Shown piece by piece: positions 7,221 through 60,170 of a stretch of 64,000 nucleotides of DNA (position 1 is the stretch's first letter; every line of letters begins with the position of its first letter). The position numbers and the translations under genes are program-made. This DNA comes from Kiritimatiellia bacterium (GTDB lineage: Bacteria > Verrucomicrobiota > Kiritimatiellia > UBA8416 > JAWODU01). The notes below the pieces were generated by a model, which saw nothing but the letters and a program-made list of their open reading frames with translations, had not been told where the DNA came from and did not search any database. The DNA lies in the NCBI GenBank assembly GCA_046483125.1, contig JAWODU010000119.1, forward strand, positions 1,584-65,583, given 5' to 3'.

Positions 7221-9128
7221 TCAGAATACCACGTTGACGCCCGCCCTGGCCGTCCTGCCGGGCCGCTCCGATCCCGGGAATTCCTCATAAGTCTCGTCGA
7301 AAATATTGTCTACGCCCAGGACAACTTCCTGCCCGAGAAGAGCGAAGCCGCCGTGAAAATCAACGGTTAGATAAGAGCCCATGGTATTCTCAGCGCTGTT
7401 CTGAGCATCGCCGTACCTGTTTCCAACGTACCTGCACTGAACCACGGCATTTGCTGTCTCCAAAACGGCGTACTCAAACGAACAGTTGGCCTTGTGCCGG
7501 GCCAGGTAGGCAAGGCGATTGCCTTCCAACGCCGGATTGGCTCCGAATTCTTCGTATTCCCCGTCGGTAAATGTGTAATTGGCGGAGACAACCATGTTGC
7601 GGCTCATCCTCCAGCGCACACGGGTCTCGACGCCGTAAGTTTCCGCCGCCGTAACGTTCCTGATGCGAAATACTCCGTCGTCTTCAAGGAGAAAGTCAAA
7701 TGAATCTCTCATGTCGTTGTAAAAACCGACAATTTCCGTCCTCACCGGTGATTGCCTGCCGTACCTGACCCCCGCTTCATAAGCCTTCAGCGTTTCCGGT
7801 TCGAGGTCGGGATTTCCTTCAAAAAGCATGCCGTTGTATTCCTGCTTGACGTAACGGTCGGAAAGGGCCGGTTCCCGATGGGCCATATTCGCCGAGGCAA
7901 AGATCCCGACTGCACCCGCAGGTCTACAGAAAAAGCCTACTCTGGGACTCAGCCTGGAACCGAAATCAGAGCTGTAATCCTGCCTCACACCGGCAATGAC
8001 GCGGAAAACATCCGCAAGATACAATTCATCCTGGCAGTAAAACCCGAACACAGACGTCCGTTCGTCTATGGGTCCGGTAGCTTCCTCAATGTCTACGTTG
8101 TCGCTTCTGCCGTCCACGCCGACGACGGCAAAGTTGTTCTCCCCTGTCCAGAGCGACTGCTGGATTTCCCCGCCCAGGGTGTACTGATCGTAAATGCCTT
8201 CTCCGGGATATTTCCAATCGTATTCGTGTTTCCGGAAATCCCGGTAAAGCCGCGTCGTAAAAGACGCGTCCCTCTTTCCGCCCCGGTTCCACCGGTACAG
8301 CACGCCTTCGTGGTCCTTTCTAGTGTCCTGCTCGAAATTTTCCGCTGTGCCCCCGGCCGTCAGCGCCCCGAGGAAAAGGCGTATTTCCGAGTTGTCGGTG
8401 ATCTGCCATCCCGCGTTACCTTCGATACTCTGAGCGATCCAGTCCCTGTCCGTTCCGTCCGAATTATCCGTGTAGCCGTCCGTCCTGACATCGGACACGG
8501 TTATGAAACAGTCCAGCGCCTCTTTTCGGTAGCCGCTGGAAATCCGGTTGTGCCAGGTGTTGTGACTGCCGCCGGAAACCATGATTTCCGTGCCGGGCCT
8601 GGTTTTACCCCTCCTGGTTACAATATTGATAACCCCGCCCATGGCGTTGGACCCGTAAATCGCCGAAGCGGGACCCCGGACGATTTCCACCCGTTCTATA
8701 CTGTCGGCGGTAAGGAGAGAAAGCTCGGCTGTGCCCTGGTACTGTTCATTGATCCGCCGCCCGTCGATAAGCACCAGGACCCGTTTCGTGCCGTAACCCG
8801 GCGTCAGACCCCGCATATTCAGCCTCACCTCCTCGCCCGGAAAACCGCCTCCCTGTAAATCAATTCCCACGGCGTTTTTAAAGAGTTTGGCGAGCGTCAC
8901 CGGCGCCGCCCGCCGTATGGCGGCGCTGTCTATAACCTGTACGCCGGCAGGCACGTCGAATACATCCTTCTTTACGCGCGAAGCCGTAATAATAATATCT
9001 TCTCCGTCCCCGCCTGAACCGTACGCGGTACAGGACAGGAGGAGAGCCGTCAGCACCGGACAAAACCCGAACCTGCCGGAGCCGTGCCTGCTTTCAGAAC
9101 AGTTCGCCTTCGCTTTCGTTTGCTTCAT
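7221..9128 (-). CDS. TonB-dependent outer-membrane receptor
   Basis: Signal peptide and a plug domain (DIIITASRVKKDVFDVPAGVQVID) are present. The protein is 22-strand-barrel length and ends in a C-terminal aromatic (..NVVF). Confidence 0.8.
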   Translation of the reverse strand: MKQTKAKANCSESRHGSGRFGFCPVLTALLLSCTAYGSGGDGEDIIITASRVKKDVFDVPAGVQVIDSAAIRRAAPVTLAKLFKNAVGIDLQGGGFPGEEVRLNMRGLTPGYGTKRVLVLIDGRRINEQYQGTAELSLLTADSIERVEIVRGPASAIYGSNAMGGVINIVTRRGKTRPGTEIMVSGGSHNTWHNRISSGYRKEALDCFITVSDVRTDGYTDNSDGTDRDWIAQSIEGNAGWQITDNSEIRLFLGALTAGGTAENFEQDTRKDHEGVLYRWNRGGKRDASFTTRLYRDFRKHEYDWKYPGEGIYDQYTLGGEIQQSLWTGENNFAVVGVDGRSDNVDIEEATGPIDERTSVFGFYCQDELYLADVFRVIAGVRQDYSSDFGSRLSPRVGFFCRPAGAVGIFASANMAHREPALSDRYVKQEYNGMLFEGNPDLEPETLKAYEAGVRYGRQSPVRTEIVGFYNDMRDSFDFLLEDDGVFRIRNVTAAETYGVETRVRWRMSRNMVVSANYTFTDGEYEEFGANPALEGNRLAYLARHKANCSFEYAVLETANAVVQCRYVGNRYGDAQNSAENTMGSYLTVDFHGGFALLGQEVVLGVDNIFDETYEEFPGSERPGRTARAGVNVVF

Positions 9129-9423
9129 TTTCCCCTCCGTCACGAGTTTCGGCGTTCGAATCTTCATCTTCAAACGGTACTGTTTCCAGTTTGCCGTCTT
9201 TTTTTACCAGCATTTCGATTTTGCGCTCCACTTCGTTCAGTTTCCCGTTACAGAACTTCAACAGCGCCTGCCCTTCCTCGAAACGGGCGACCATCTCCTC
9301 CAGCCCCATGTTCCCGCTTTCCATGTCGCCGACGATTGTTTCGAGTTTTTCCAGGGCCTGTTCAAAAGTAATTTTTTCCGATGAAGTCCCCTCAGTTTTT
9401 CCCGGAGTCTTTTTCTTTGCCAT
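9094..9423 (-). CDS. xseB: Exodeoxyribonuclease VII small subunit with acidic C-terminal tail
   Basis: EQALEKLETIVGDMESGNMGLEEMVARFEEGQALLKFC matches XseB. The 3' end overlaps the TonB-receptor start by about 35 nt. Confidence 0.8.
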   Translation of the reverse strand: MAKKKTPGKTEGTSSEKITFEQALEKLETIVGDMESGNMGLEEMVARFEEGQALLKFCNGKLNEVERKIEMLVKKDGKLETVPFEDEDSNAETRDGGENEANESEGELF

Positions 9424-13114: not shown

Positions 13115-13744
13115 TCAAAAACCCTTCGCGTACATCACTCTTTTTTCCGTCACCACGGCGTCCAGGCGGATGTCTCTTTTTCCCGCCGGAACCCGTTTCT
13201 CAATCTGAAATTCGAAGCCCAGACCCGCCGCAAAACAGCCGCGAACGCGCCCTTTCCGTTTTCCTGCAATTTCGCCCAGCATACGGTCATAATGACCTCC
13301 GCCCCGTCCAAGCCTGTTCCCGAGGCCGTCAAAAGCAACACCTGGAACCACGACAAAATCCACTTCCTCGAAAGGTTCCAGTTCCCGCACACCGGGTTCA
13401 GGAACACCGAAAGGGCCGGCGATGATCGGCGTCCGTTCGGTCAGGCGCGCGGGACGGTACCGTTCTTCCTCCGCAGCAAAGACAGGCACACATAACTTCT
13501 TACCGGAAGCCCTGCAATGCCCGATGATCGCTTCCGTGCATACTTCTCCGCCGAAGGCCATATAACAAAGAACTGTTTCGGCCGAATTGAATTCCGGAAG
13601 CCCGGCCAGGCGGTCCTGTGCTTTGCGGCTTTCCTCTTCAATCCATTCAGCTTTCAGCTCAGCCCGGCATTTCTTTATTTTTCCGCGAAGATCGGCCTTT
13701 CGGAAATCAATCGACAGGGTTTTGTCGTCTGCGTTCATTTTCAC
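13115..13744 (-). CDS. 5-formyltetrahydrofolate cyclo-ligase
   Basis: VDFVVVPGVAFDGLGNRLGRGGGHYDR motif. 209 aa. Confidence 0.8.
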   Translation of the reverse strand: MKMNADDKTLSIDFRKADLRGKIKKCRAELKAEWIEEESRKAQDRLAGLPEFNSAETVLCYMAFGGEVCTEAIIGHCRASGKKLCVPVFAAEEERYRPARLTERTPIIAGPFGVPEPGVRELEPFEEVDFVVVPGVAFDGLGNRLGRGGGHYDRMLGEIAGKRKGRVRGCFAAGLGFEFQIEKRVPAGKRDIRLDAVVTEKRVMYAKGF

Positions 13745-15060
13745 AGCTTTCTTTGGCGAAGGCGCTTCATTCGTTTCGCGATCACTTCTTCGTACCCGCT
13801 GGGTTTCGGTTCGTAATAGGCTTCTTTTCCCGGCAAATACTCCTGCCGCAGACCGCCCTCTTCATCATCATGCGGATAAACGTACTTCGGGGCGCCCGCG
13901 CCGCCTTCGGCGTCCACGTGTATATTCTTGAGGTGCTCCGGCACCATGGCGCTCCTTCCCTCCCTGACGTCGGAACCGGCTTTCTCTATCGCCGTGTAGG
14001 AAGCGTTGCTTTTAGGGGCGGCCGCAAGATAGGTGACAGCGTGAGCAAGAATGATTCTCGCTTCAGGCATGCCCGTGAACTCCACAGCGTGCATTGCCGA
14101 TACCGCCAGTGTCAAGCCGCGCGGATCGGCATTACCCACGTCTTCCGATGCCAGTATAACCAGACGACGCGCTATGAACCTGGGATCCTCCCCCGCGTAA
14201 AGCATCTTTGCCAGCCAGTAAATCGCGGCGTCCGGGTCGGAGCCCCTGATACTCTTTATAAAGGCCGATATGGTATCGTAGTGACCGTCTTCGTCGTGAT
14301 CATATACCACGGCCTTTTTCTGAATGGACTCCTCGGCGACTTCCCTGCTCAGACGGACCGTTCCGTCCTTTTCCGGCCTGGTCGTAAGCACGGCTATTTC
14401 AAGCGCGTTCAGCGCCCTCCTGGCATCCCCGTCGCATACCCGCGCCAGGTGGTCCAGGGCGGCGTCATCGGCACTGATCTTCCACGATGCGAAGCCTCTC
14501 TCGTCGGACAGGGCCCTGGCGAGGAGTGATCGCACCGCCTTTTCACTCAGCGGATTCAGTTCAAACACAAGCGACCTGGAGAGAAGCGGACTGTTTATGA
14601 AGAAAAGAGGGTTGTGAGTAGTAGCCCCGACAAGCGTTACGGCGCCCTCTTCAACGTGCGGCAACAGGACGTCCTGCTGGGACTTGCTGAACCTGTGCAT
14701 TTCATCAATGAACAGGATAGTTTCTCCGCCGCCTCGCTGTCTGCGGGTCCCGGCCCGTTTGAGAATATCCCGCAGAGCCGCGACACTTGCCGCAGAGCCG
14801 CTGGTGCGTTCGAAACTTCGCTTTGTAACCCCCGCGATAACTTCGGCAATAGATGTCTTGCCGCATCCCGGAGGGCCGTACAGAATTACACTGGTGAGTC
14901 TGTCGGCCTCAACGGCCCTTCTCAACAGCCTGCCCGGGCCCAGAATAGACTCCTGGCCTGCGATTTCGTCGAGAGTCCGGGGGCGCAGTCTGGCCGCAAG
15001 GGGCCGTTTTGCGGAACCCTTCCCCTCCCGCTCCTTTCCAAACAGGTCCATGTCCTGCAT
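13741..15060 (-). CDS. rarA: Replication-associated recombination protein A (AAA ATPase)
   Basis: Walker A ILYGPPGCGKTS and MgsA C-terminal domains are present. Confidence 0.9.
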   Translation of the reverse strand: MQDMDLFGKEREGKGSAKRPLAARLRPRTLDEIAGQESILGPGRLLRRAVEADRLTSVILYGPPGCGKTSIAEVIAGVTKRSFERTSGSAASVAALRDILKRAGTRRQRGGGETILFIDEMHRFSKSQQDVLLPHVEEGAVTLVGATTHNPLFFINSPLLSRSLVFELNPLSEKAVRSLLARALSDERGFASWKISADDAALDHLARVCDGDARRALNALEIAVLTTRPEKDGTVRLSREVAEESIQKKAVVYDHDEDGHYDTISAFIKSIRGSDPDAAIYWLAKMLYAGEDPRFIARRLVILASEDVGNADPRGLTLAVSAMHAVEFTGMPEARIILAHAVTYLAAAPKSNASYTAIEKAGSDVREGRSAMVPEHLKNIHVDAEGGAGAPKYVYPHDDEEGGLRQEYLPGKEAYYEPKPSGYEEVIAKRMKRLRQRKL

Positions 15061-15538
15061 GGCGAAAAAAAATACCCCGCCATGAGTCGTAAAGGCATCT
15101 ATCTCCGTTCCTCTGATAACGAGGTGGGTGCTCTATCCGCCGCTTCATCGGGTCCCCTTACGGGGCTCCTTTCCACGCCGTTTTCAAGCTCCCTTGACTA
15201 CAATAAAGGGTCAGAGATTTTCTGCCTGTCAGCGAACAAGGCAGGGTATTTGTTCCCCATACAAGAGCCTCTTTGAGGCTATTCTCAAAGAACCAGGAAC
15301 ACGCGCGACACCGGTACAGCCGGCGGAATTCAGCACAGCCGCCAAACCCGGCGCCACGGTATTTTGGAATATTCCGGATATAACAAAATTCGCCTTCCCC
15401 GCGTCGTTAAACACAACGGGCGACGAAATCCAATTTCTCAGCCTTGTAATCATAGGGGCGGAAACCCTGTCTTATTCATATTTTTGCGACTTCGGGTGTC
15501 TTTCCGTTTTTCTTAACAGCCGGCTGATACATCGGCCT

Positions 15539-21645: not shown

Positions 21646-21683
21646 AATGCTTCGCGTATCTTATTATCCCAGTCTGTATCCCC

Positions 21684-21758
21684 ATCTTAATCCCAATCTT
21701 AATCTTTATCTTAATCTCCCTGATATCAGATTATGATTAAGATTGTGATTAAGATTAC
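21684..21758. repeat. Palindromic repeat array: 3x ATCTTAATC, then ctGATATCag, then 2x GATTAAGAT (inverted)
   Basis: Seen directly. Lies between the thrS start and the stop of the vWA gene. Confidence 0.85.
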
Positions 21759-21765
21759 TAATCCT

Positions 21766-23523
21766 TTACATCTCCTCCCTGTACGGGATGCGGATACCGT
21801 AGGATTCGGCCGTCTTTTCCATTGCCCGGAGAATACGCACGTCGGGTTTCCGCGCGTATTCCCCGGTCAGATGATATATTTTCCGCCTTGCCCATTCGGT
21901 CTTGATCCTCTTGTTTCCGCGCTCGACGTTCCCTGTCAACGGCAGATCGAAAACCATATCGCATTCCAGTTCGCCTGCACGCCCCGCCGCCTGAAACGTC
22001 ACTTTTTCCAGCCCCTTCGGATATCGCCCGTACAGCACCAGCGGTCTGTCGAGATACAGATTACTGCACAAAACCGGATACACCTCGCAACCGGTATCCG
22101 AAGCGAATACAAAGTCCAGGTCCGTAATGACGGGTCTCCTTATCCCCGCGCACATCTCCTTTATTACGTCCGGAATAGACCACCTGCCCCGTGATATTAT
22201 GCGCGAATCTCCTCTGTTACAGTAACTCAGCAGGTCCAGCAGGTAGGAATTGGCGGTTTGCACAGTGCCCGCCGTGAACACGGAGATTTCGCCTTTATTG
22301 AGTTTACTGAATTCTCCTATGATTTCAGAGCTGTGTACTACACCGGCGGTAGGACGGCCGTCGGTAATCAACAGCGCGGTAACGGGCCTTCCCGGTTTCC
22401 GCTGTAATTTCAAGAGCGCTTTCATGGATTCAAATATGTCCGTATTTCCGCCCGCCTGAAGGCTGTCTATGAAATCTTTCGCTTTTCCCAGGCTTGCCGG
22501 AACCGGGCGCGCCCAGTCCTTGAAACACATTTCCGGAGAGTCCCTGAACCCAACCACATTGAACCTGTCGCCTTCGCCCAGCATCGCAAGACAGTTCTTC
22601 AAGCCTTCTCTGCAGAAATGAAGTCTTCGTTCGGCCATGCTGTTCGAACAATCCTGCACAAGCAGTACGTCTCTCGACAGGACCGGCAGTACTTTTTCAC
22701 CCTTCCTTTCTATTTCCACCTTGAAGTAGCCGTAGTCAAAGTCGAAGAAACGGGAATAAACGGTGATTTCCGCCTTCAGAACGTCTTCCACCGGTTTCAG
22801 GTCCTTTACCCTTCCGGTCCCCTCCACGTCCTCCGGCCTGCCGGGTTCGGGCCCCTTTCCTCCTTTGCCGTCGGACGGCATATCGCGCAAACGCCGTCTT
22901 ACGGTAACTTTCACGTCCAAACCTCCCTTACCGGAAAAATCCTCACGCCCGGAGCCGCGCCCCTGCATTTTTATCAAGTCGGACGATTCCACCGGCGCGG
23001 TAATGTCAGGCGCCCCGGTCCTCCTTTCGATATCCGGAATGACTCTTCTTTCCAGCCCCCGGATTTCAGACCCGGCCGCCTCCCTGCTCACTGAAATAAT
23101 TTCTTCTCTGGGCTCCCAGGCGCCGGGAGTGACGGAAGCATCACTTTCCGGCCCCCTCTTCATCTCACCGGCCGTGTCGCCGTTGTCGAAAGCCGGCGGC
23201 TCAAGGTCCGACTCGCTCGGAGGCGTCCCGAGTTTGCGCACTTCTTCGGTCAGTTCCATAACCGAGGGCGATTCACCGGGGCGCGTCACTTTGCCTCCCG
23301 GCCTCATGCTGAACGCCTCCCGCTTTAAATCTTTTATTCTTAAACCCGAACGGTTAATTACACTTTCGGACAGCGGCTCTGCGGACGACAGCCGTATGGC
23401 GTACCTTGAGGCCACAGTCAAAACCAGAACGTGGATTACAAAAGATACCGCGCAGGCCGATAAAGCGGCGGCGGTGCGGAATGATCCCGACCTTGCGCTC
23501 GAATTTTTTTTGCCGTAACTCAT
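21766..23523 (-). CDS. Membrane-anchored von Willebrand factor type A (vWA) domain protein
   Basis: N-terminal TM (SACAVSFVIHVLVLTVA), then a long disordered Pro/Glu/Gly linker. The C-terminal vWA has MIDAS DCSNSM...GGNTD...TDG. Confidence 0.7.
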   Translation of the reverse strand: MSYGKKNSSARSGSFRTAAALSACAVSFVIHVLVLTVASRYAIRLSSAEPLSESVINRSGLRIKDLKREAFSMRPGGKVTRPGESPSVMELTEEVRKLGTPPSESDLEPPAFDNGDTAGEMKRGPESDASVTPGAWEPREEIISVSREAAGSEIRGLERRVIPDIERRTGAPDITAPVESSDLIKMQGRGSGREDFSGKGGLDVKVTVRRRLRDMPSDGKGGKGPEPGRPEDVEGTGRVKDLKPVEDVLKAEITVYSRFFDFDYGYFKVEIERKGEKVLPVLSRDVLLVQDCSNSMAERRLHFCREGLKNCLAMLGEGDRFNVVGFRDSPEMCFKDWARPVPASLGKAKDFIDSLQAGGNTDIFESMKALLKLQRKPGRPVTALLITDGRPTAGVVHSSEIIGEFSKLNKGEISVFTAGTVQTANSYLLDLLSYCNRGDSRIISRGRWSIPDVIKEMCAGIRRPVITDLDFVFASDTGCEVYPVLCSNLYLDRPLVLYGRYPKGLEKVTFQAAGRAGELECDMVFDLPLTGNVERGNKRIKTEWARRKIYHLTGEYARKPDVRILRAMEKTAESYGIRIPYREEM

Positions 23524-25938
23524 CTACTCTTCGCCGCTCTCCGTCTTCTTACGCCATCTGCTGTCCGGATATCTATCAGACAGTTCACGGACGGCTTTCT
23601 GTGCCGATTCATTCCTGCCCGCTTTTCTCAATACTTCAGAGGCTTCATACAGCGCCTCGGGCACAATATCCGGGTGATCAAAGAGAGTTGCCACAATCAT
23701 GAAATATCGCGCGGCTTCTTCAAAATCCGACCGTCCCTCGGCGGCTTTGCCCAGGCCCATGTAAGCCCTTGCCCTCAAGCCTGTTTGTTCGTCTTCTCCG
23801 GCCATTCTTGCGGCTTTCGAAAACAGAGCACGGGACCGGTCATATTCTTTCTTTTCCAGCATCAAATATCCGAGTTTAAGCGCGCATTCCGGCGCATATT
23901 CAGTAACAACATCCTCTTTGAGCGCCCCGGAAAAGGCGCCGGACGCTTTTTTCTTTTCCCCGAGAGCCGAATACGCTCTTCCGGCCAGACACAGGGCCGC
24001 CTGGCGCCATTCGGGATCATCACTCCGTTTCAAAATCAGTTCCGCCGCGGATACCGCTTCGGCGTATTCCTTTTCTTCGTGCCAGTACTCGGACAGCCAT
24101 TTCAGCAGACCGGGGGTAAACTCCTGTTTCAAGGGGGAATCGAGCAAAGGCCTGAGGAGAGAAGCCGCGCTTTCATCCTTTTCCTGTTTCAGAAGCGCAA
24201 GCGCCATGCTGTATGAAGCGTGCCGTTTGAGTTCGTTGTCCGAGGCCTTCTCCAGCACTTCTTTGAATTCCTCGGCCGCGTCGGCGGGTTTGTCCTGTGA
24301 GAACAACAACCTTCCAAGCCAGTAGCGCGCTTCAACCGCGAATTCGGATTCCGGAAATGTTTGCAGAAAAGATCTGAAGGTGCGCTCGGCGTCTTCACGG
24401 AGTTTCAACCGGATTTGAGCCCTGCCCATCTGATAAATGGCCTCTTCCGCGAGAGAATGATTCTGATGTCCGTTAATCAGCTCCGACCAGTCCCGGACCG
24501 CCTCGGCATCGTCTCCGTTTTCCGCCATGCACAGCCCTGAAGCAAAAAGAGCCCGCCCCGCAAGTCCGCTTTCGGAAGCGCCGGCAGACAGCCTGTAATA
24601 ACGCGAAGCCTCTTTGTAAGATCCGCGTTTCCGGAGCATATGAGCCAACCGAAACGCGGCTTCATGCGCCGCTTCGGTCTTCGGGAACTCTTTCAATATC
24701 AGTTTGTAGTACTGAATCGCCCTGTCCCCGTCATTCAGCCCCGCGTAAGCTTCGGCCATGAGCCGATAAACGTCTTTTTTTCTTCCGCCCGCATCCAGCG
24801 CGCGGCGCGCGTCCGCAACCGCCTGAAGCAAATTATTCATTTTGTAACTGCTCAACGCTCTTTCATAAAATGAAGGCCCGGTGAATTCGCTGTCAGGATA
24901 CTTCTTCTGCAGACGCAGGTAAGTCTCAGCGGCCGCCTTGTACCTTGCCAGTTGACGCTCGCAATTAGCCTTGAGATAAAGCCATTCGGCCCGTTTGTCC
25001 CCGGAGAGCCCGTCCCCTTTCAAGGCCGTATCCGCCAGCTCGAGCGCCCGCGCGTAAAAGCCGGCGTTATGCGAAGCCCAGGCCGCGGGCAACGGCGATT
25101 CGACTGCGCGACTGTCCTCGGAATATTCTAAAAGCAAACGGTCATAGGCTTTCGCGCTCCGGGCGTACTCTTCCCGCCGAAACCGCAGTAAGCCGGCCTG
25201 AAACAGGGCCTCAGCCGCGACACGGTCCGTTTGGGCCGTCTTAACGACCTTGTCGTAAAGTTCAAGAGCCTTCTTCTGAGTATCGGCCTGCCGGCCGTAT
25301 ATTCCAGCGAGTTTTAAAAGAGCGTAAGGGTAAAAGCGGGACTGCGGGTGGTTCCCGGTGATTTCTTCCAGACGTTGAACCGCTTTTTTCTTATCTTCAG
25401 GAAGAAGGGCTTCGCCAAGGTAATAAAGGGCGCCGGCAGTAATATCCCCGCCGGGGTTCCGCTCAAGCAGTTCCCGCAGTAACCGGACCGCTTCCCGGCG
25501 CTCTTCGCGGTCAAGATGCAGAATCGCCGCTCTGAAACCGGCTTTGTGACTCAACTTACCCGCAGAACGGTTGAAAACGCGCTTGTACATGGAGCAGGCG
25601 TCTTCACTCCTGCCGAGTTTCTCAAAGCTCAACCCAGCCCCGAACACGGCCCGCGGAGTCTTTTCACTGTCAGGACAGGCTTCGATGAAAGCTTCGTATT
25701 CTCCAGCCGCCGCTTCATACATTTCCCTGCTGAAAAGCGCATCCGCGAAACGCAGTCTGTCTTCCGGAGTCACTGTTTCCCCGGCCGCAGCCCCAGCGCA
25801 CAGCAGAATCAGGCAAATACTACGGATCAACAAACGCATCCCCGTGCCCACGGTGAAAAAACTGTTCTTCATGCAATCGACGGTCTCGCAATCGCGGCAT
25901 GCCCGGGCCGCCTGTGGATACCCGCCCCGGGGGTTCAC
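23524..25938 (-). CDS. Secreted tetratricopeptide-repeat (TPR) protein
   Basis: About 800 aa of TPR-like repeats. Signal peptide MRLLIRSICLILLCAGAAAG. The ORF-track start is a GTG overlapping the exbD stop (GTGA); the true start may be M23 or M34. Confidence 0.75.
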   Translation of the reverse strand: MNPRGGYPQAARACRDCETVDCMKNSFFTVGTGMRLLIRSICLILLCAGAAAGETVTPEDRLRFADALFSREMYEAAAGEYEAFIEACPDSEKTPRAVFGAGLSFEKLGRSEDACSMYKRVFNRSAGKLSHKAGFRAAILHLDREERREAVRLLRELLERNPGGDITAGALYYLGEALLPEDKKKAVQRLEEITGNHPQSRFYPYALLKLAGIYGRQADTQKKALELYDKVVKTAQTDRVAAEALFQAGLLRFRREEYARSAKAYDRLLLEYSEDSRAVESPLPAAWASHNAGFYARALELADTALKGDGLSGDKRAEWLYLKANCERQLARYKAAAETYLRLQKKYPDSEFTGPSFYERALSSYKMNNLLQAVADARRALDAGGRKKDVYRLMAEAYAGLNDGDRAIQYYKLILKEFPKTEAAHEAAFRLAHMLRKRGSYKEASRYYRLSAGASESGLAGRALFASGLCMAENGDDAEAVRDWSELINGHQNHSLAEEAIYQMGRAQIRLKLREDAERTFRSFLQTFPESEFAVEARYWLGRLLFSQDKPADAAEEFKEVLEKASDNELKRHASYSMALALLKQEKDESAASLLRPLLDSPLKQEFTPGLLKWLSEYWHEEKEYAEAVSAAELILKRSDDPEWRQAALCLAGRAYSALGEKKKASGAFSGALKEDVVTEYAPECALKLGYLMLEKKEYDRSRALFSKAARMAGEDEQTGLRARAYMGLGKAAEGRSDFEEAARYFMIVATLFDHPDIVPEALYEASEVLRKAGRNESAQKAVRELSDRYPDSRWRKKTESGEE

Positions 25939-26363
25939 TTTCGCGTCTCCTGCTCCGGTTCAGTCGCGGCAAACGATACATTCCAGATATCGGCCGACGC
26001 GCACATATCCAGCACGCGGATCACGAATCCGTAAGGAGTTTCCCTGTCTGCCCGTATCAGGACCGGTGAACCTGGAAACAGCTCCACCACCCGGTTCAGC
26101 AGAGAACCGAGATCCTCTTCGTTCAGCGTCTTCTTGTTTACCACAACCGTTCCGTCCGGGAGAATATTCAGGATAATTTCGCCGGGCAGACGCTGGGGCA
26201 CTTCGCCCGATTTCGCCGTTGGAAGCGTAATATCCAGTTCGGTTTCCCACTGCGAATATATCTGCGTGGCGATAAAGAAAGACAGCAAAAGAAACACCAC
26301 GTCTATCATCGGCGCAATCTGAAAACCGGGTTCGGATGAAGAAAGTCGAGCACGAAATCTCAT
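25935..26363 (-). CDS. exbD: Biopolymer transport protein ExbD/TolR
   Basis: Single TM (IAPMIDVVFLLLSFFIA) plus periplasmic domain. 142 aa. Confidence 0.85.
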   Translation of the reverse strand: MRFRARLSSSEPGFQIAPMIDVVFLLLSFFIATQIYSQWETELDITLPTAKSGEVPQRLPGEIILNILPDGTVVVNKKTLNEEDLGSLLNRVVELFPGSPVLIRADRETPYGFVIRVLDMCASADIWNVSFAATEPEQETRK

Positions 26364-27142
26364 ACCTGTTTCTTGCTGAGGAAGGCCGTAAGAAGCCGGG
26401 TTGAAGCCGATTCAAGACAGGAAACAAGCCGCGAAGCCTTTCTGCGGAAATAAGCGTAAAAGGCCATGGCCACAATACCGACTACCAGGCCCGCCGCCGT
26501 GGTAACAAGCGCTTTGGAAACGCCCATGGCCACCGCTACCGGTTTGGCGCTCGCAGTTTCAAGGCCAAGGGATGTAAACGCATTCAGCATGCCCCACACT
26601 GTCCCGAGCAAACCGATCATCGGCGATACCACGGCTATATCCATCAGGTACTGGGTCTGCCCCTGTATGGCATCCGCCTGCCGCGCTCCTTCGCCTTCCA
26701 TCACATCCTTCATCAACAGCGGATCCGCCGCCGGCACCTCGCGCACATAATCAATCACCGCGCCGGCTACGTCCGAAAGCGGGCAGGGGCGGTAATCGCA
26801 GGTTCTGCGAGCCTCTTCAAACGCTCCGCCCTCGATCTTATCCAGTAATTCACGAAACAGCGCTTTCGGAGCCACCTGCGAAGGACGCAATACCGCAAAG
26901 AAATACGCTATTAAAGCCACGGCCGCAAAAGATATGCCGATCAGGACAAAAAATATTGCGCCCCCGCTCTCAACGATCCACCGGGTTGTCAAGCCGGCCT
27001 CGCCGCTCTCTCCGGCTTTCTCGACGGTTTCAACGGCGGCCCGCGGGGACGTTTCCTGCGCCGATAGAACGCCCGCGGTCCCGAACATCCACCCGCACGC
27101 CATAATCGCCACCAGAGTTATTTTCAGATATTTCAAGTCCAC
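26360..27142 (-). CDS. exbB: MotA/TolQ/ExbB proton-channel protein with N-terminal signal peptide/periplasmic extension
   Basis: Three C-terminal TM helices with the conserved MGVSKALVTTAAGLVVGIVAMAFY. Confidence 0.85.
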   Translation of the reverse strand: MDLKYLKITLVAIMACGWMFGTAGVLSAQETSPRAAVETVEKAGESGEAGLTTRWIVESGGAIFFVLIGISFAAVALIAYFFAVLRPSQVAPKALFRELLDKIEGGAFEEARRTCDYRPCPLSDVAGAVIDYVREVPAADPLLMKDVMEGEGARQADAIQGQTQYLMDIAVVSPMIGLLGTVWGMLNAFTSLGLETASAKPVAVAMGVSKALVTTAAGLVVGIVAMAFYAYFRRKASRLVSCLESASTRLLTAFLSKKQV

Positions 27143-28702: not shown

Positions 28703-28772
28703 CCGTCATCTGCCATCCGTCATCTGCAATCCGTCATCTGTCGTCCGTCATCCGCCCTCCGTCCTCCGCCAT
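28703..28772. repeat. Family B tandem repeat, 14 bp period (CCGTCATCTG + 4 nt) x5
   Basis: Seen directly. Overlaps the last codons and stop of the 28734..30020 gene. Confidence 0.85.
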
Positions 28773-30020
28773 CTCCCCTCTGACCTTATCCTCCAGCTCT
28801 TCAAGCGCCTTTTCCGCTTCCGACAGCAGGTCCCTGAGAACGTCTTCTCTGCGCCCGTTTCGCACCGCCTGAAGGAAAGCACAGTACTTTTCCACCACGG
28901 CCGCGAACTCTTTGCCGCGGCCTACAGCCAGTAGTCGCAGTGTAATACTTTTGCTCTTCAGCGCCGAATCAATCCACTCCGCGTCACGCAACCCGGCTAA
29001 ATCGCCGAATGCGATAAATCTGCCGGGATCTTCAGCCAGCGGTACGCCGCCTTCTCCGGGACGCAAACGGAGTTCCGTCTTGAATTGCTCAATACCCAGC
29101 GGCGTAATGGAGCCGAGGCGGTAGACCATACGCCGCTGACTCAGTATCCACTCGTCCCATCCATCCTCCATTTCCAGGATTTTGTCGTACCGTCCGATGT
29201 AAGAAAGCGCAATACCGGCGGTTATCTCTTGTCTGTCTGCAATGCGCTCAATCATCCCGGTAAAAAACCCTCTCTTGTCCGGAAGAGATTTAAGCCAGCC
29301 GAAAAAGACGCCGCACACGGCTTCGCCGGCGTCGCTTCCCCCCGACGCAAGTATTTCCGCCGCCGTCGGCACCAGTCCCTCCCGCCACATCCGGTAAACA
29401 CGGTGCCCGTTTCGCGCTCTCAGGGCGGGATACAGGTCCTCGGCCAGGCCGTACCACAGCCAAAAGGGAATCCTGCTTCCCTGCGGTCCGCCCGGGCCCG
29501 CCTTCAAACCCTTCCGGAGCCTCATGCCGGCAATCTTCGCTTCAAGCAGTACCCTGCAAAGTGCGGCCTGGGCTTTTCTCCCGTCAACTTCGGGATAACC
29601 GTTGAGTATCAGCCTCTGGATGAACTTGCCGTTTTCGAAGGAAATCGTTCTCAGTATCCGTCCTTCCGGCATGCCCTCGGCACCTTTGCCTCCGCCGGTC
29701 TGCGTTTCCCGGGCCTGCGGCCCGCGAAGCACGATAAAGACATCACATTCCCCGCCCGTGGACAGATCCACGCCGAGTGCTTTTTCAGCTTTTGAAGCCG
29801 TTTCCTCGGCCCATGAGCCGATTTGCATATTGTACCGGGCGTTTGTGCTTGAAACCAGGAAGCGGCCGCCGGGACTCCTGGCGACCCGAAAAGAGCGGTA
29901 AAGACCGGCGGCAGTGCTTTCGGCGGCGTCGCTTCCAGCACCGACAGACGCCCCGATAAGGATAACAAGTACCGGGAAAAGAGCGCGGCACCGCATGCCG
30001 CCTTGCGCGGGGTGAATCAT
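28734..30020 (-). CDS. Hypothetical exported protein
   Basis: The start ATG at 30020 forms an ATGA overlap with the upstream gene's stop. Signal peptide MRCRALFPVLVILIGASVGAG. No family recognised. Confidence 0.5.
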   Translation of the reverse strand: MIHPAQGGMRCRALFPVLVILIGASVGAGSDAAESTAAGLYRSFRVARSPGGRFLVSSTNARYNMQIGSWAEETASKAEKALGVDLSTGGECDVFIVLRGPQARETQTGGGKGAEGMPEGRILRTISFENGKFIQRLILNGYPEVDGRKAQAALCRVLLEAKIAGMRLRKGLKAGPGGPQGSRIPFWLWYGLAEDLYPALRARNGHRVYRMWREGLVPTAAEILASGGSDAGEAVCGVFFGWLKSLPDKRGFFTGMIERIADRQEITAGIALSYIGRYDKILEMEDGWDEWILSQRRMVYRLGSITPLGIEQFKTELRLRPGEGGVPLAEDPGRFIAFGDLAGLRDAEWIDSALKSKSITLRLLAVGRGKEFAAVVEKYCAFLQAVRNGRREDVLRDLLSEAEKALEELEDKVRGEMAEDGGRMTDDR

Positions 30021-30700
30021 TTTTCGATCATCACCGTCAGTTTGTCGTCCGAAATTTCCATTTCGGCAACACCCGCGATCTTCTTCCATTCCTCCGTCCG
30101 GCTCACTACATCGCGAATCCTGCCTTCCGCAATGCCTTTCAGCGGCCCGGGGAGGCGCATGTGCCCTACCCACCCCTTGGCCACGAACAGTTCGCCGTTC
30201 CACGGATAACAGAGAATCTCGTAAGACATGTGTGCCGTCCACTTGAATTTAACAAGGGGCAGTGTGAATAGTTTTTTAACCATTCTTACCTTGCACGCTC
30301 CATTGCTGAGAGAAGCGCTGAAGCCTTCAAGGTCCATTTTTTCAGCCTTGTGCCTCAGCATTCCGTTTATGTCCTTTTCACTGAACTCGAGGCGCGCCCT
30401 CTGGCCGGTCCGCAGACGCTCAATAACGCCTATGCCGCGGGCGACCCTGTTTTTACCGACGGCGGTGCCCTCTTCTCCCAGAGTACCCATCCTGGGCCAC
30501 AGTATTATACCGATGAGACCGGCAACCAGTACAACCGCCGCCAGGACAAGCTTGCGCCAGTGTTTCTGCATCCAGCTTACTTTCTGGGTCTCGGCCAGAT
30601 TCTGAGAACTCATCCTGCTCAAGTCGAGCTTGTTGCCGCACGACACACAGAAAACACGACCCAGAGGGTTTTCGGATCCGCATTTCGGACATGTAATCAT
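30017..30700 (-). CDS. Zinc-ribbon, single-pass membrane protein (MITCPKCGSENPLGRVFCVSCGNKL + TM + periplasmic domain)
   Basis: CxxC..CxxC N-terminus followed by hydrophobic LVLAAVVLVAGLIGIILW. ATGA overlaps on both sides. Confidence 0.55.
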   Translation of the reverse strand: MITCPKCGSENPLGRVFCVSCGNKLDLSRMSSQNLAETQKVSWMQKHWRKLVLAAVVLVAGLIGIILWPRMGTLGEEGTAVGKNRVARGIGVIERLRTGQRARLEFSEKDINGMLRHKAEKMDLEGFSASLSNGACKVRMVKKLFTLPLVKFKWTAHMSYEILCYPWNGELFVAKGWVGHMRLPGPLKGIAEGRIRDVVSRTEEWKKIAGVAEMEISDDKLTVMIEK

Positions 30701-31029
30701 AATTGCACCTTTTGAGCGTCTTTCTTGCCCTTCGTTTCCCCGGTTTTTTTCTTCTGCGCCGGCTCGCTTTTTCCTCCGGATTCCTTTTTGCCGCCGTCAG
30801 CGCCGCCCGTCTTCTCCGTATCCTTCTCGGCGGCTTTCTTATAGCTCTCACTCCGATAATCCGTCTCGTAAAAGCCGGAGCCCTTGAACAGAATCCCCGC
30901 GCCTACTCCAAGAACCCGTCTCACCTTGCCCCGGCATTCGGGACAGCGCTTTCTGGGCTCATCGGTCATGCTCTGAAACAGTTCGAAACTATGGCCGCAT
31001 TTCAGACATTCATATTCGTACGTAGGCAT
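30697..31029 (-). CDS. FmdB-family zinc-ribbon protein with Lys/Glu-rich tail
   Basis: MPTYEYECLKCGHSFE..RCPECRG matches the CxxC_CxxC_SSSS family. Start chosen at M56 of the longer ORF. Confidence 0.7.
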   Translation of the reverse strand: MPTYEYECLKCGHSFELFQSMTDEPRKRCPECRGKVRRVLGVGAGILFKGSGFYETDYRSESYKKAAEKDTEKTGGADGGKKESGGKSEPAQKKKTGETKGKKDAQKVQL

Positions 31030-31224
31030 ACGGGTATCCCGGAGTTGAAATTCGCACTGGAATGTACCCTGTTTTGCCCCCCCTGTCAATCCGCTTAAAA
31101 GCACGACGGGGCCGGGGGGAGCGCAAGCCACTTCCGCGGGGTTTCTGTCTGAAGCAGAGCTTGCTTGATGATCCCATGGTCGTGTACCTTGCAATGACGA
31201 AGCAAGAAGTACCCAAGCCCGGAA

Positions 31225-43420: not shown

Positions 43421-43496
43421 TGGAGCCAACGGTCGGGATCGAACCGACGACCTGCTCATTACGAGTGAGCTGCTCTACCGACTGAGCTACGTTGGC
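43421..43496 (-). tRNA. tRNA-Thr (anticodon CGU)
   Basis: Minus-strand sequence GCCAACGTAGCTCAGTCGGTAGAGCAGCTCACTCGTAATGAGCAGGTCGTCGGTTCGATCCCGACCGTTGGCTCCA. Cloverleaf with 7 bp acceptor stem, GG in D-loop, TTCGATC T-loop, CUCGUAA anticodon loop and encoded CCA. Coordinates +/-1. Confidence 0.85.
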
Positions 43497-48991: not shown

Positions 48992-49693
48992 CTATGATTT
49001 CTTCCGGAATTTCTTCCGGAATGGAACCGCCAGGGAGACAAACGCGAAGGCCAGCGTAGCGCACGTGCCGGGCTCGGGAATTTCCACCGTGTAGTCGTCG
49101 AGACCGTAGTGCTCGTCCTCGGTCCCGCGCCACGTAAGCAGGATACCGATCTCATCCACGTCGGCGAGGTCGTCGTAGTAGGAAGCCCCCGCGTCCTCAC
49201 TGTACCACCCGCCGCCCCCGCGGACATCCGCTGAATAGTACTTCCAGCCCGATGATTGCTGAACCGTCAGATCGTAAAACCATGCGTAATCGCCTCCGGC
49301 GTTGCGGTCGCTCCAGAAATACAGCGAAAGCGCCGAGGGCCAGTCCGTGTTGTTCGCCGCGTCCTGGTATAGACTAAAGCTTATCCGCCACGCGCCGCTG
49401 AAATCCTTATTTCCCGCAAGCCCGGCTGGACTGCCCGCGTCCGTGTAAATCAGGTCATCCCGCGGGCCGCCTGCCGAATTGTCCGCGTGCAGGCGCAACG
49501 CTCCGTCGCCGCCTATAGTCTCGTGACTCGGCGCGTCGCTGTATGAAGCGACTCCCGTGTCGGGTTTTGCCGCCCAACCCGCGGCGTTTCCGTCTTCCCA
49601 CGTTTCCTTTATCAAAACCGCCGCACCGGCGCTGTAAACACAGGCCGCCAGAAGCAGAACTGCTCCCGCCGCGGCGATGTAAATTCTTTTCAT
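48992..49693 (-). CDS. PEP-CTERM-anchored secreted protein
   Basis: Signal peptide. C-terminus IPEPGTCATLAFAFVSLAVPFRKKFRKKS is a PEP motif plus TM plus basic tail. Confidence 0.7.
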   Translation of the reverse strand: MKRIYIAAAGAVLLLAACVYSAGAAVLIKETWEDGNAAGWAAKPDTGVASYSDAPSHETIGGDGALRLHADNSAGGPRDDLIYTDAGSPAGLAGNKDFSGAWRISFSLYQDAANNTDWPSALSLYFWSDRNAGGDYAWFYDLTVQQSSGWKYYSADVRGGGGWYSEDAGASYYDDLADVDEIGILLTWRGTEDEHYGLDDYTVEIPEPGTCATLAFAFVSLAVPFRKKFRKKS

Positions 49694-49710
49694 TTATCTC
49701 CCCCTGCCGT

Positions 49711-50703: not shown

Positions 50704-50708
50704 GATTT

Positions 50709-51992: not shown

Positions 51993-52066
51993 TGTTGCCC
52001 TAATTATCCCAATTTGGACCACCGGAGTCAATAAAAAAACAGAATTTCTCGTTTTGGCTTCCGCCC

Positions 52067-52200
52067 CTGCCGCCTTGCCTGTCCACCGTAGTCCGGCGGG
52101 CGCGGCAGGAGCGGAAGATTGGGGGAAAACGCCGGCGTTTTCCCCTTATTTCCTTCACGCCTTCGTCCGTCATCTGACGGACTACGGCGGGCGGGGCAAG
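52067..52200. repeat. Inverted pair of the GACGGACTACGGCGG(R)CAGGCAAGG motif (third copy at 38958..39000)
   Basis: 52067..52100 is the reverse complement of 52166..52196. A copy sharing about 35 of 40 nt lies in the pyrC/FHA divergent spacer. Confidence 0.65.
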
Positions 52201-52206
52201 GTCAGA

Positions 52207-53580: not shown

Positions 53581-53593
53581 GTTAAGTATTTTC

Positions 53594-53628
53594 CCGACCT
53601 TCGGCGAACAGGGGTTCGCCTCCTACAG
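53594..53628. repeat. REP-like element CCTTCGGCGAACAGGGGTTCGCC + TCCTACAG (Family D; second copy at 62010..62046)
   Basis: Seen directly. Shares the TCCTRCA tail with Family C. Confidence 0.75.
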
Positions 53629-53686
53629 TTTCTTCCCGGCCTTTCCGCCCTTCCTGTGAATCTCTCTCCCCGTCGGTCATCCCTTC

Positions 53687-55716: not shown

Positions 55717-55747
55717 TAAGACCGACCTGCTCGTTCAAGGTTGTTTA

Positions 55748-55877: not shown

Positions 55878-55881
55878 CAGA

Positions 55882-58933: not shown

Positions 58934-58950
58934 TAATTGCTCTCCTCTTC

Positions 58951-60156: not shown

Positions 60157-60170
60157 ATGGTCAGCGCGTT

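What the first reader, a model, noticed from the sequence alone, without database searches (positions are those of the whole stretch)
21766..27142. exbB-exbD-TPR-vWA four-gene operon without TonB; the vWA protein has TonB-like topology
Four tightly coupled minus-strand genes overlap or abut at 26360/26363, 25935/25938 and 23523/23524. They encode an ExbB with a signal-peptide extension, ExbD, an 800-aa secreted TPR protein, and a 585-aa protein with an N-terminal TM anchor, a long Pro/Glu/Gly-rich linker and a C-terminal vWA (MIDAS) domain. No TonB or TolA C-terminal domain is present. The anchored, linker-bearing vWA protein sits where the energy-transducing partner would be. This resembles, but is not identical to, Bat-type (vWA+TPR) aerotolerance operons and Tol/Exb-powered envelope machines.
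Basis: partly seen in the sequence, partly recalled or inferred. Interest (0 to 1): 0.55.

Follow-up and report, generated by a model that had tools for sequence, protein, structure and literature searches.

The report
Membrane motor with vWA-headed TonB-like arm
A Kiritimatiellia bacterium carries a conserved four-gene operon in which a proton-driven ExbB/ExbD motor is paired with a TPR protein and a TonB-like anchored arm ending in a von Willebrand A domain, a design first proposed from sequence data in 2025 and never tested, of which this is a sequence-distinct variant.

Summary
Four minus-strand genes, exbB (26360-27142), exbD (25935-26363), a TPR gene (23524-25938) and a vWA gene (21766-23523), are joined by ATGA, GTGA and TAGATG junctions. 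No TonB_C or TolA domain was found in any of the 54 window ORFs scanned.

The vWA protein has an N-in transmembrane helix whose Ser27-x3-His31 is present in every homologue that covers it (111/111 and 112/112). This is the motor-docking motif of TonB and TolA. A roughly 200-residue disordered linker follows, then a confidently modelled head with an intact MIDAS site. The head is most similar to inter-alpha-inhibitor heavy chain 1. exbB-exbD-TPR lies directly upstream of the vWA gene in 51 of 61 related PVC-group loci.

The idea is not new. A 2025 paper (PMC12204202) proposed "vWA force transducers" next to tolQR-like motors and TPR genes in PVC bacteria, with function unknown. This family shows no detectable sequence similarity to that paper's Tichowtungia exemplar beyond the membrane helix. 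It also has one ExbD, one transducer and a different gene order.

The most novel open reading is that this protein replaces TolA in Tol-Pal. It is not a Bat operon.

The parts
26360..27142 (-). exbB/tolQ-like proton-channel subunit (260 aa). It has a signal-peptide-like N-terminal segment (res 8-26) before TM1. The GTG start is preceded by AAGGAGAGA. It lies 29 nt downstream of argH.
   Evidence: Pfam MotA_ExbB 1.9e-27. NCBIfam TolQ 76 bits and ExbB 60 bits, both below cutoff. PDB ExbB 49 bits against TolQ 44 bits. GTVWG Thr181 and TTA Thr215 align with E. coli ExbB T148/T181. Sequence read.
25935..26363 (-). exbD/tolR-like subunit (142 aa). This is a single copy, with the conserved helix Asp21 in PMIDVVFLLL.
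   Evidence: Pfam ExbD 7.8e-25. It aligns with E. coli ExbD PFIDVMLVLL. ATGA overlap with exbB. Homologues are 52-65% identical.
23524..25938 (-). Secreted multi-TPR protein (804 aa from GTG, or about 771-782 aa from internal ATGs). It is built of about 7 CpoB/YbgF-like TPR modules. It has a type-I signal peptide and no conserved lipobox.
   Evidence: TIGR02795 tol_pal_ybgF 230 bits in 7 stretches, cutoff 90. The best natural PDB hit is CpoB 6g5s at 6e-7. Homologue N-termini. Start-site alternatives.
21766..23523 (-). vWA force-transducer candidate (585 aa): N-in TM helix, disordered linker, ITIH-like vWA head.
23404..23487 (-). Codons for the TM helix (res 13-40). It contains Ser27 (23443-23445) and His31 (23431-23433), the S-x3-H of the TonB/TolA SHLS motif.
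   Evidence: S27 in 111/111 and H31 in 112/112 non-gap sequences of A2. AF2 helix 13-40 with pLDDT about 95.
22789..23403 (-). Codons for the disordered periplasmic linker (res 41-245). It carries a conserved short strand-like motif at about res 62-70 (PMxLxxV in homologues), which is a motor-box candidate.
   Evidence: AF2 pLDDT 35-64. Alignments A1 and A3. Composition.
22993..23118 (-). Codons for the conserved linear motif in the linker (res 136-177): W-x-P-R-Q-E-I-x-A-I-E ... L-x-R-R-x-I-P-x-I-E-R-V-x-x-A-P-D. W136 and R159 are invariant. It is a candidate docking peptide for the TPR protein.
   Evidence: The role is inferred.
21769..22788 (-). Codons for the globular head (res 246-585): beta-hairpin, vWA domain with MIDAS (D291, S293, S295 at 22639-22653; T361; D388), beta-sandwich and C-terminal helices.
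   Evidence: pLDDT above 95. Foldseek ITIH1 6fpy E 7e-21 over 352 columns. phmmer ITIH4 3.9e-10. TIGR03788 residues 281-577 at 3.9e-30, below cutoff.
21684..21755 (-). 28-nt imperfect inverted repeat (89% complementary, 16-nt loop) immediately 3' of the vWA stop, made of 12-nt periodic AT-rich units. It probably marks the operon end or a thrS leader.
   Evidence: No Rfam match. The function was not tested.

Best explanation
The locus encodes a proton-motive-force-driven envelope machine of the Ton/Tol type.

ExbB and ExbD form the inner-membrane motor (by analogy a 5:2 complex). The 585-aa protein is its force transducer. Its N-in helix docks on the outside of the ExbB ring through Ser27/His31, as the TonB and TolA helices do. 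A short conserved strand after the helix probably engages the ExbD periplasmic domain, the 'motor box'. A roughly 200-residue disordered linker then spans the periplasm.

The C-terminal ITIH-like vWA head uses its metal-ion site (MIDAS) to grip an acidic side chain of an unidentified periplasmic or outer-membrane partner. The secreted protein of about 7 CpoB-like TPR modules is a periplasmic scaffold. It probably binds the conserved linear motif in the linker (res 136-177).

Shown here:
- the gene set and translational coupling;
- the conserved S-x3-H, ExbD Asp and ExbB Thr residues;
- the domain architecture;
- the synteny across the clade.

Inferred:
- docking of the helix on the motor;
- the motor-box role;
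- binding between the TPR protein and the linker;
- MIDAS-mediated capture of a target;
- the physiological role.

The housekeeping context and the CpoB-like partner make a Tol-like envelope-integrity or division role the likeliest.
For: - Junction overlaps ATGA, GTGA and TAGATG.
- Pfam assignments.
- S27 in 111/111 and H31 in 112/112 of 113 homologues that are only about 40% identical overall.
- ExbD D21 and ExbB T181/T215 align with the essential E. coli ExbD D25 and ExbB T148/T181 (the residue roles are established knowledge).
- AF2 model: helix 13-40 with pLDDT about 95, residues 41-240 below 60, head above 95.
- The head matches ITIH1 at E 7e-21, with MIDAS residues invariant.
- exbB-exbD-TPR lies directly upstream of the vWA gene in 51 of 61 loci with enough sequence, all from Kiritimatiellia, Lentisphaeria or 'Verrucomicrobia' MAGs.
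- The TPR protein scores 230 bits on the CpoB/YbgF model.
- An independent publication reached the same mechanistic proposal for an analogous PVC family, with AF3 models placing the conserved His at the TonB/TolA site on the motor (PMC12204202).
Against: - There is no experimental evidence for this or any related family.
- No complex model could be computed here.
- Only S-x3-H of the four-residue SHLS motif is conserved. The +7 position is Leu in 46 of 113 sequences, and the +11 Ser is absent.
- In 9 of 61 loci the vWA gene is not next to exbBD-TPR, so linkage is not obligatory.
- Much of the surrounding gene order (argH upstream in most loci, thrS-pheST downstream in some) is also conserved. 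Part of the synteny may therefore reflect general genome conservatism.
- The target of the head is unknown.
Confidence: 0.62

Rival explanations
1. Specific version: the vWA protein is the functional replacement of TolA in the Tol-Pal system of these lineages. TolQR-like motor, CpoB-like TPR protein and vWA transducer would together drive TolB-Pal dynamics and outer-membrane constriction. The TolA domain III would have been replaced by a non-homologous MIDAS head.
For: - The CpoB/YbgF-type TPR modules are in the same operon, and the best natural PDB hit of the TPR protein is CpoB.
- NCBIfam ranks TolQ above ExbB (76 vs 60 bits) and TolR above ExbD (53 vs 33 bits).
- The locus is single-copy, vertically conserved and sits among housekeeping genes.
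- The supplement of PMC12204202 records 'tolQ-tolR-???- No TolA found' plus a separate tolB-pal locus for Lentisphaerae bacterium RIFOXYA12_FULL_48_11. That is the MAG my locus L006 comes from, and L006 carries this four-gene cluster.
- The same supplement says of Kiritimatiella glycovorans 'unable to annotate TolA', and says Tichowtungia lacks discernible TolA and TonB.
Against: - The head is unrelated to TolA domain III, which binds TolB by beta-strand addition.
- No tolB or pal lies within the window or within 9 kb of the vWA gene in L001-L003.
- All NCBIfam Tol scores are far below the equivalog cutoffs.
- PDB scores do not separate ExbB from TolQ (49 vs 44 bits).
- I could not confirm that the paper's 'tolQ-tolR-???' is this locus.
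- I could not survey whole genomes for TolA.
Confidence: 0.3
2. A third kind of motor-driven system, neither Tol nor Ton. It might serve surface adhesion, gliding, secretion or polysaccharide handling, as the 2025 paper speculated for the Tichowtungia family.
For: - The paper's suggestion.
- vWA/MIDAS heads act as adhesins in gliding (CglB, PMC9946355, listed) and in pili (SpaC, PitA, Mfa5 among the fold matches).
- These bacteria are polysaccharide degraders with type II secretion and pilus genes nearby in the window.
Against: - No adhesin-secretion, Glt-like or outer-membrane partner gene sits in or beside the operon.
- The context is housekeeping.
- The head is tethered to the inner membrane and has no predicted route across the outer membrane.
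Confidence: 0.22
3. TonB substitute: the vWA arm energises TonB-dependent transporters.
For: - A TonB-dependent receptor (Plug plus barrel) lies at 7221-9173 in the same window.
- No TonB_C protein was found in the window.
- Tichowtungia is reported to lack TonB.
Against: - The receptor has a canonical TonB-box-like EDIIITA. That is the ligand of a TonB C-terminal domain by beta-strand pairing, not an obvious MIDAS ligand.
- Pontiella (Kiritimatiellota) has PF03544 TonB_C genes next to its transporters.
- The window covers only 64 kb of the genome.
- The receptor is 12 kb away and is not syntenic with the cluster in other loci.
Confidence: 0.08
4. Bat-type (aerotolerance) or otherwise motor-independent anchored vWA protein. 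On this view adjacency to exbBD is only conserved gene order.
For: - vWA plus TPR recalls BatA/B plus BatC/E.
- BatB (3ibs) and a B. fragilis aerotolerance protein (4jdu) appear among the fold matches at E about 1e-9.
- 9 of 61 loci lack the motor genes next to the vWA gene.
Against: - No BatA N-terminal domain and no MoxR or DUF58 genes.
- The Bat matches cover only the roughly 200-residue vWA core, whereas ITIH1 covers 352 columns.
- Invariant polar Ser and His inside the membrane helix are hard to explain without a helix-helix partner. The unlinked copies keep them too.
- The genes are translationally coupled.
Confidence: 0.07

Closest known systems
'vWA force transducers' of PMC12204202 (Mol Biol Evol 2025; exemplar Tichowtungia aerotolerans, Kiritimatiellota; in silico only)
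   Same: - Inner-membrane helix with the S-x3-H(is) motor-binding motif, then a disordered linker with a short strand after the helix, then a vWA-fold head.
- Neighbours are a tolQ/exbB-like motor, tolR/exbD and TPR genes.
- Found in the PVC group.
- Function unknown.
   Different: - No detectable sequence similarity outside the helix (BLASTP E 0.15 over 35 residues; hhalign probability 3.8%).
- The Tichowtungia proteins are 474-476 aa, hit no Pfam VWA model and show D-A-D/N-K where a MIDAS D-x-S-x-S would be.
- Their locus has two ExbD genes, two tandem transducers and TPR genes upstream of the motor (L084).
- Here there is one ExbD, one 585-aa transducer with a full MIDAS and an ITIH-like head, and the TPR gene lies between motor and transducer.
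ExbB-ExbD-TonB (Ton system)
   Same: - A motor pair with the essential ExbD Asp and ExbB Thr residues.
- A partner with an N-in helix carrying S-x3-H and a long periplasmic linker.
- Operon organisation.
   Different: - No TonB C-terminal domain.
- The linker is not proline-rich (9% Pro).
- The operon carries an extra large TPR protein.
TolQ-TolR-TolA with CpoB (Tol-Pal system)
   Same: - A motor plus an S-x3-H-anchored transducer plus a CpoB-type TPR protein in one operon.
- Housekeeping context.
   Different: - No TolA domain III.
- No adjacent tolB-pal.
- The TPR protein is 3 times longer (about 7 CpoB-like modules, no coiled coil detected) and is apparently not lipidated.
Inter-alpha-inhibitor heavy chains / VIT-vWA proteins (ITIH1 6fpy; TIGR03788 marine sortase target)
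   Same: The head fold: vWA with MIDAS plus the flanking beta domain and C-terminal helices (Foldseek E 7e-21; TIGR03788 3.9e-30 over residues 281-577).
   Different: - No VIT domain and no sortase signal.
- The N-terminus is a membrane helix plus a disordered linker.
- The TIGR03788 score (105 bits) is far below its cutoff (552).
Bat aerotolerance operon (BatA-E with MoxR/DUF58)
   Same: Membrane-anchored vWA protein(s) together with a TPR protein.
   Different: - No BatA N-terminal domain and no MoxR or DUF58 genes.
- An ExbBD motor is present.
- The helix carries S-x3-H.

Membership tests
vWA force transducers (PMC12204202) | N-terminal TM helix with SHLS-type motif and conserved His | tested here: met
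   S27 in 111/111 and H31 in 112/112 sequences. Leu at +7 in 46/113. No Ser at +11.
vWA force transducers (PMC12204202) | Disordered linker with a predicted motor-box strand after the helix | tested here: inconclusive
   Residues 41-240 have pLDDT below 60. A conserved PMxLxxV-type motif lies at about residues 62-70. It is not modelled as a strand in the monomer.
vWA force transducers (PMC12204202) | C-terminal vWA-fold domain instead of a TonB/TolA CTD | tested here: met
   Pfam VWA_3 4.7e-15. Foldseek ITIH1 7e-21.
vWA force transducers (PMC12204202) | Synteny with a tolQ-like gene, tolR-like gene(s) and a TPR gene | tested here: met
   51 of 61 loci. The window junctions overlap.
vWA force transducers (PMC12204202) | [quoted passage not shown] | tested here: not met
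   One exbD here and in the related loci. Two in Tichowtungia L084.
vWA force transducers (PMC12204202) | Sequence homology to the Tichowtungia transducers | tested here: not met
   BLASTP matches only the helix, E 0.15. hhalign probability 3.8%. The two homologue lists have no member in common.
TonB | TonB C-terminal domain (PF03544) | tested here: not met
   No hit in Pfam or NCBIfam.
TonB | N-terminal helix with S-x3-H and adjacent exbB-exbD | tested here: met
TolA / Tol-Pal | TolA domain III (PF06519) that binds the TolB N-terminus | tested here: not met
   No hit.
TolA / Tol-Pal | TolQ/TolR equivalogs | tested here: inconclusive
   TIGR02796 at 76 bits against a cutoff of 221. TIGR02801 at 53 bits against 127. 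PDB ExbB 49 bits, TolQ 44 bits.
TolA / Tol-Pal | CpoB/YbgF TPR protein in the cluster | tested here: met
   TIGR02795 at 230 bits, above its cutoff of 90, in 7 stretches. The architecture differs: 804 aa and multi-module.
TolA / Tol-Pal | tolB and pal adjacent, or present in the genome with no other TolA | not testable with these tools
   Neither gene is in the window or within 9 kb of the vWA gene in L001-L003. Whole genomes could not be read. The only evidence is the literature note for one MAG.
Bat aerotolerance operon | BatA N-terminal domain (PF07584) with MoxR ATPase and DUF58 neighbours | tested here: not met
   No such hits in the four proteins or their neighbours.
VIT-vWA / ITIH / marine sortase target (TIGR03788) | N-terminal VIT domain, full-length model score, sortase signal | tested here: not met
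   105 bits against a cutoff of 552, aligned only over residues 281-577. The N-terminus is a helix plus linker.

The most novel reading that the evidence does not exclude
This family may be the long-missing TolA of Kiritimatiellia and Lentisphaeria. On this reading the Tol-Pal system of a whole PVC clade kept TolQR, CpoB-type TPR modules, TolB and Pal. It replaced the TolA periplasmic domains with an unrelated linker and an integrin/ITIH-like MIDAS head. Force would then be coupled to the outer-membrane side by metal-ion-dependent capture of an acidic residue instead of beta-strand addition.
Probability: 0.3. Interest if true: 0.7.

Novelty: new variant of a known kind. Interest (0 to 1): 0.42.

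Why it matters
Ton and Tol are the two long-established ways diderm bacteria send inner-membrane energy to the outer membrane. Both use the same C-terminal domain and the same beta-strand-pairing grip. A conserved operon that keeps the motor and the S-x3-H docking helix but swaps the gripping domain for a MIDAS-bearing vWA head implies a different coupling chemistry. It also shows the transducer to be modular.

The 2025 paper raised this idea from one family. The present locus is a second, sequence-unrelated family with the same design. That strengthens the case that the design is real and recurrent.

The locus also offers a better-behaved test case. It has a single ExbD and a single transducer, a canonical MIDAS that can be mutated, and a CpoB-like partner. 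It gives a concrete candidate for the TolA that genome surveys failed to find in these lineages. All of this is still prediction, and no member has been tested.

Tried and rejected
- **Bat-operon reading:** rejected. There is no BatA_N, MoxR or DUF58.
- **Membership in the published Tichowtungia family:** tested by BLASTP, hhalign, Pfam and a look at the locus itself. Sequence homology was not met.
- **TonB/TolA ancestry of the N-terminal module:** I searched a 183-position profile of helix plus linker against 1.84 billion representatives. Only 219 hits had E<=1e-3. Nearly all of the 150 listed are about 580-610 aa or fragments of the same family, so no link to TonB or TolA appeared. The last 69 hits were not listed.
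- **Cultured carriers:** I looked for Kiritimatiella, Tichowtungia, Pontiella, Victivallis and Lentisphaera in two homologue searches and the genome scan. None was named among the hits shown, but only the top 120 proteins and top 80 loci are listed, so absence is not shown.
- **afdb50 fold search** (for named UniProt homologues): the library was unavailable.
- **Rfam** on the whole window, to explain the hairpin after the operon: no match there.
- **Promoter/terminator scan:** the counts do not exceed the shuffled controls, so it is uninformative.
- **TolQ versus ExbB assignment of the motor:** not resolvable.
- **Complex modelling** (motor with helix, TPR with linker): not possible with the single-chain tool.
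Full report
**1. The observation**

- exbB at 26360-27142 (260 aa)
- exbD at 25935-26363 (142 aa)
- a TPR gene at 23524-25938 (804 aa from a GTG start)
- a vWA gene at 21766-23523 (585 aa)

I read the junctions directly. exbB/exbD share ATGA, exbD/TPR share GTGA, and the TPR stop TAG is followed at once by the ATG of the vWA gene.

exbB starts 29 nt after argH, at a GTG preceded by AAGGAGAGA. thrS, infC, rplT, pheS and pheT follow the vWA gene. Read along the minus strand, the order is argH, the four genes, then thrS.

Pfam gives MotA_ExbB at 1.9e-27 and ExbD at 7.8e-25. It gives a long list of TPR families for the 804-aa protein, and VWA_3 at 4.7e-15 for residues 285-439 of the 585-aa protein.

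I scanned 54 of the 57 long non-overlapping ORFs of the window. None carries a TonB_C, TolA, TolB or OmpA/Pal domain.

Two small corrections apply. The linker is only moderately Pro/Glu/Gly-rich: 33% against 20% in the head, with Pro at 9%. The TPR start may be an internal ATG. The GTG start adds 33 residues in front of a signal peptide that homologues carry at their very N-terminus.

**2. Where it comes from and how conserved it is**

The vWA protein is identical to an NCBI entry named [quoted passage not shown]. It has more than 250 homologues of about 580-610 aa at 37-47% identity.

A scan of one genome per species returned 123 relatives. The 80 loci kept are all from Kiritimatiellia, Lentisphaeria/Victivallales or loosely labelled "Verrucomicrobia"/PVC MAGs, apart from a few labelled only "bacterium", a 1.6-kb contig in a Chloroflexota bin, and one single-cell genome. 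No cultured species was named among the hits shown.

In three metagenomic contigs with precomputed gene calls, the order argH-exbB-exbD-TPR-vWA is identical to the window. In two of them thrS-infC-rpmI-rplT-pheS-pheT follows.

Across all fetched loci, 51 of 61 with at least 4.5 kb of upstream sequence have exbB-exbD-TPR directly upstream of the vWA gene. There is always a single exbD.

In nine loci the vWA gene sits next to other genes instead. The two I checked (L011, L019) have DUF1015, a PAP2-like protein and a sugar transferase there. The seven of these proteins whose N-terminus I could read cleanly keep the helix motif, so they presumably use a motor encoded elsewhere.

**3. Anatomy of the vWA protein**

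AlphaFold2 on a 113-sequence alignment gave three parts:
- one confident helix, residues 13-40 (pLDDT about 95)
- a low-confidence region, residues 41-240 (below 60)
- a very confident globular head, residues 245-585 (above 95)

Basic residues precede the helix. The N-terminus is therefore cytoplasmic and the rest periplasmic, which is the TonB/TolA topology.

Within the helix, Ser27 is present in 111 of 111 sequences and His31 in 112 of 112 that cover the position. These sequences are only about 40% identical overall. The position seven residues after His is Leu in 46 of 113 and always hydrophobic. S-x3-H is the core of the SHLS motif through which TonB and TolA bind ExbB and TolQ (established knowledge, restated in PMC12204202).

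The linker carries two conserved islands. One is a short PMxLxxV-type strand-like motif at about residues 62-70. The other is a longer motif at residues 136-177, W-x-P-R-Q-E-I-x-A-I-E ... L-x-R-R-x-I-P-x-I-E-R-V-x-x-A-P-D.

The head has an intact MIDAS (D291-x-S293-x-S295, T361, D388, all invariant). Its best structural match is inter-alpha-inhibitor heavy chain 1 (6fpy, E 7e-21, 352 aligned columns). BatB and other plain vWA domains match only the core of about 200 residues. Sequence searches agree: ITIH4 at 3.9e-10, and TIGR03788 at 3.9e-30 over residues 281-577, far below its cutoff.

**4. The other three proteins**

ExbD keeps the helix Asp. PMID21VVFLLL aligns with E. coli ExbD PFID25VMLVLL.

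ExbB keeps the two pore threonines, T181 in GTVWG and T215. It also has a signal-peptide-like segment before TM1, as do its homologues.

The motor cannot be assigned to Ton or Tol. NCBIfam slightly favours TolQ and TolR (76 vs 60 bits, and 53 vs 33 bits, all below cutoffs). PDB scores are 49 bits for ExbB and 44 for TolQ.

The TPR protein is secreted, with a type-I signal peptide and no conserved lipobox in homologues. It matches the CpoB/YbgF TPR model in seven stretches (230 bits against a cutoff of 90). Among natural proteins in the PDB its best match is CpoB.

**5. How it most likely works**

The conserved polar Ser and His inside a single-pass helix are the main evidence. So are the intact catalytic residues of the motor, the translational coupling and the conserved synteny. 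Together they support a Ton/Tol-type machine.

In this model an ExbB/ExbD proton-driven motor holds the helix of the vWA protein at its periphery and pulls or rotates it. The strand after the helix probably engages ExbD, as the "motor box" of TonB and TolA does. The disordered linker crosses the periplasm. The MIDAS head grips an acidic residue of a partner.

TPR domains bind extended peptides, and CpoB binds TolA in E. coli (established knowledge). I therefore infer that the multi-TPR protein binds the conserved motif at residues 136-177. Everything past the sequence features is inference, because no complex could be modelled here.

I put 0.62 on this general mechanism.

**6. What it is for**

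Three readings remain open.

(a) *TolA substitute (0.30).* The CpoB-like partner, the housekeeping context and the single-copy vertical inheritance all fit. The supplement of PMC12204202 lists "tolQ-tolR-???- No TolA found" plus a separate tolB-pal locus for Lentisphaerae bacterium RIFOXYA12_FULL_48_11. My locus L006 is from that MAG and carries this cluster. The same supplement could not annotate TolA in Kiritimatiella glycovorans. Against this reading, the head is unrelated to TolA domain III, tolB-pal is not adjacent, and I could not read whole genomes.

(b) *A third system, such as adhesion or gliding (0.22).* The paper suggested this for its own family.

(c) *TonB substitute (0.08).* The window has a TonB-dependent receptor at 7221-9173. 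Its EDIIITA TonB box implies a conventional TonB C-terminal domain somewhere in the genome. Another Kiritimatiellota member, Pontiella, has TonB_C genes.

A motor-independent, Bat-like reading gets 0.07.

**7. Comparison with what is known**

[quoted passage not shown] These are inner-membrane helices with an SHLS motif and a conserved His, a disordered linker with a motor box, and a vWA head. [quoted passage not shown] Their function is unknown, and AF3 models place the His at the TonB/TolA site.

I retrieved that paper's exemplar, Tichowtungia aerotolerans P0121, and its locus L084. The locus reads TPR(904)-110-781-TPR(938)-262-ExbB-ExbD-ExbD-transducer(476)-transducer(474).

The Tichowtungia transducers hit no Pfam VWA model and lack D-x-S-x-S. 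They share nothing detectable with the present family except the helix (BLASTP E 0.15; hhalign probability 3.8%). The two homologue lists have no protein in common.

A profile of the present family's helix plus linker finds only 219 proteins among 1.84 billion representatives. Nearly all of those listed have the same length class or are fragments of it. The N-terminal module is therefore specific to this family.

The locus is a second, sequence-distinct realisation of a recently proposed design, not a member of the exemplar family.

**8. Verdict**

Novelty is reduced by the 2025 paper, so I class this as a new variant of a known but untested kind.

It remains a good experimental entry point. 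It has one ExbD, one transducer, a canonical MIDAS and a CpoB-like partner, and it offers a concrete candidate for the "missing TolA" of this clade. Interest 0.42.

Noticed in passing
window 21646-21765 (between the vWA stop and the thrS start, minus strand): An AT-rich spacer built of 12-nt periodic ATCTTAATCCCA-like units. It contains a 28-nt inverted repeat (21684-21711 / 21728-21755, 89% complementary, 16-nt loop). No Rfam family matches it. It could be an operon terminator or a thrS leader.
   Followed up: partly
window 7221-9173 (-): A TonB-dependent receptor (Plug plus barrel) with a lipobox-like LLSC and a canonical TonB-box-like EDIIITA. This implies that a conventional TonB C-terminal domain is encoded somewhere outside the window.
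   Followed up: partly
window 28734-30242 (-) and 30017-31194 (-): A secreted 502-aa protein with no Pfam or NCBIfam hit lies upstream of argH. It is conserved there at 22-31% identity in most related loci. Two zinc-ribbon proteins (Zn_Ribbon_1 plus TM, and Zn_ribbon_8) lie further upstream and are also syntenic in L003. Whether any of these belongs functionally to the exbBD cluster is unknown.
   Followed up: partly
window 15070-15250 (-) and 43424-43496 (-): A 6S RNA (Rfam 54.8 bits) lies downstream of the RarA-like gene at 13741-15060. A tRNA gene lies at 43424-43496.
   Followed up: no
window 54253-61897 (-): A type II secretion / type IV pilus-like cluster: a PilM-PilN fusion, T2SS K, a pseudopilin, T2SS G, F and E. 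It is flanked at 48992-54256 by a MORN-repeat protein and several ORFs with no family hit.
   Followed up: no
L011, L013, L019, L007, L016, L069 and others (related loci): A sub-lineage has the vWA transducer gene detached from exbB-exbD-TPR. In L011 and L019 it is preceded by DUF1015, PAP2-like and sugar-transferase genes. In L011, L013 and L019 it is still followed by thrS. The S-x3-H helix is retained.
   Followed up: partly
L084 (Tichowtungia aerotolerans CP047593, 3743679-3765109): The published exemplar locus also encodes a 781-aa paralogue of its transducers (P0219, 30% identical). It further encodes two very large TPR proteins (904 and 938 aa) and unannotated 110-aa and 262-aa proteins upstream of ExbB. 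The text of the paper that I read does not describe these.
   Followed up: no
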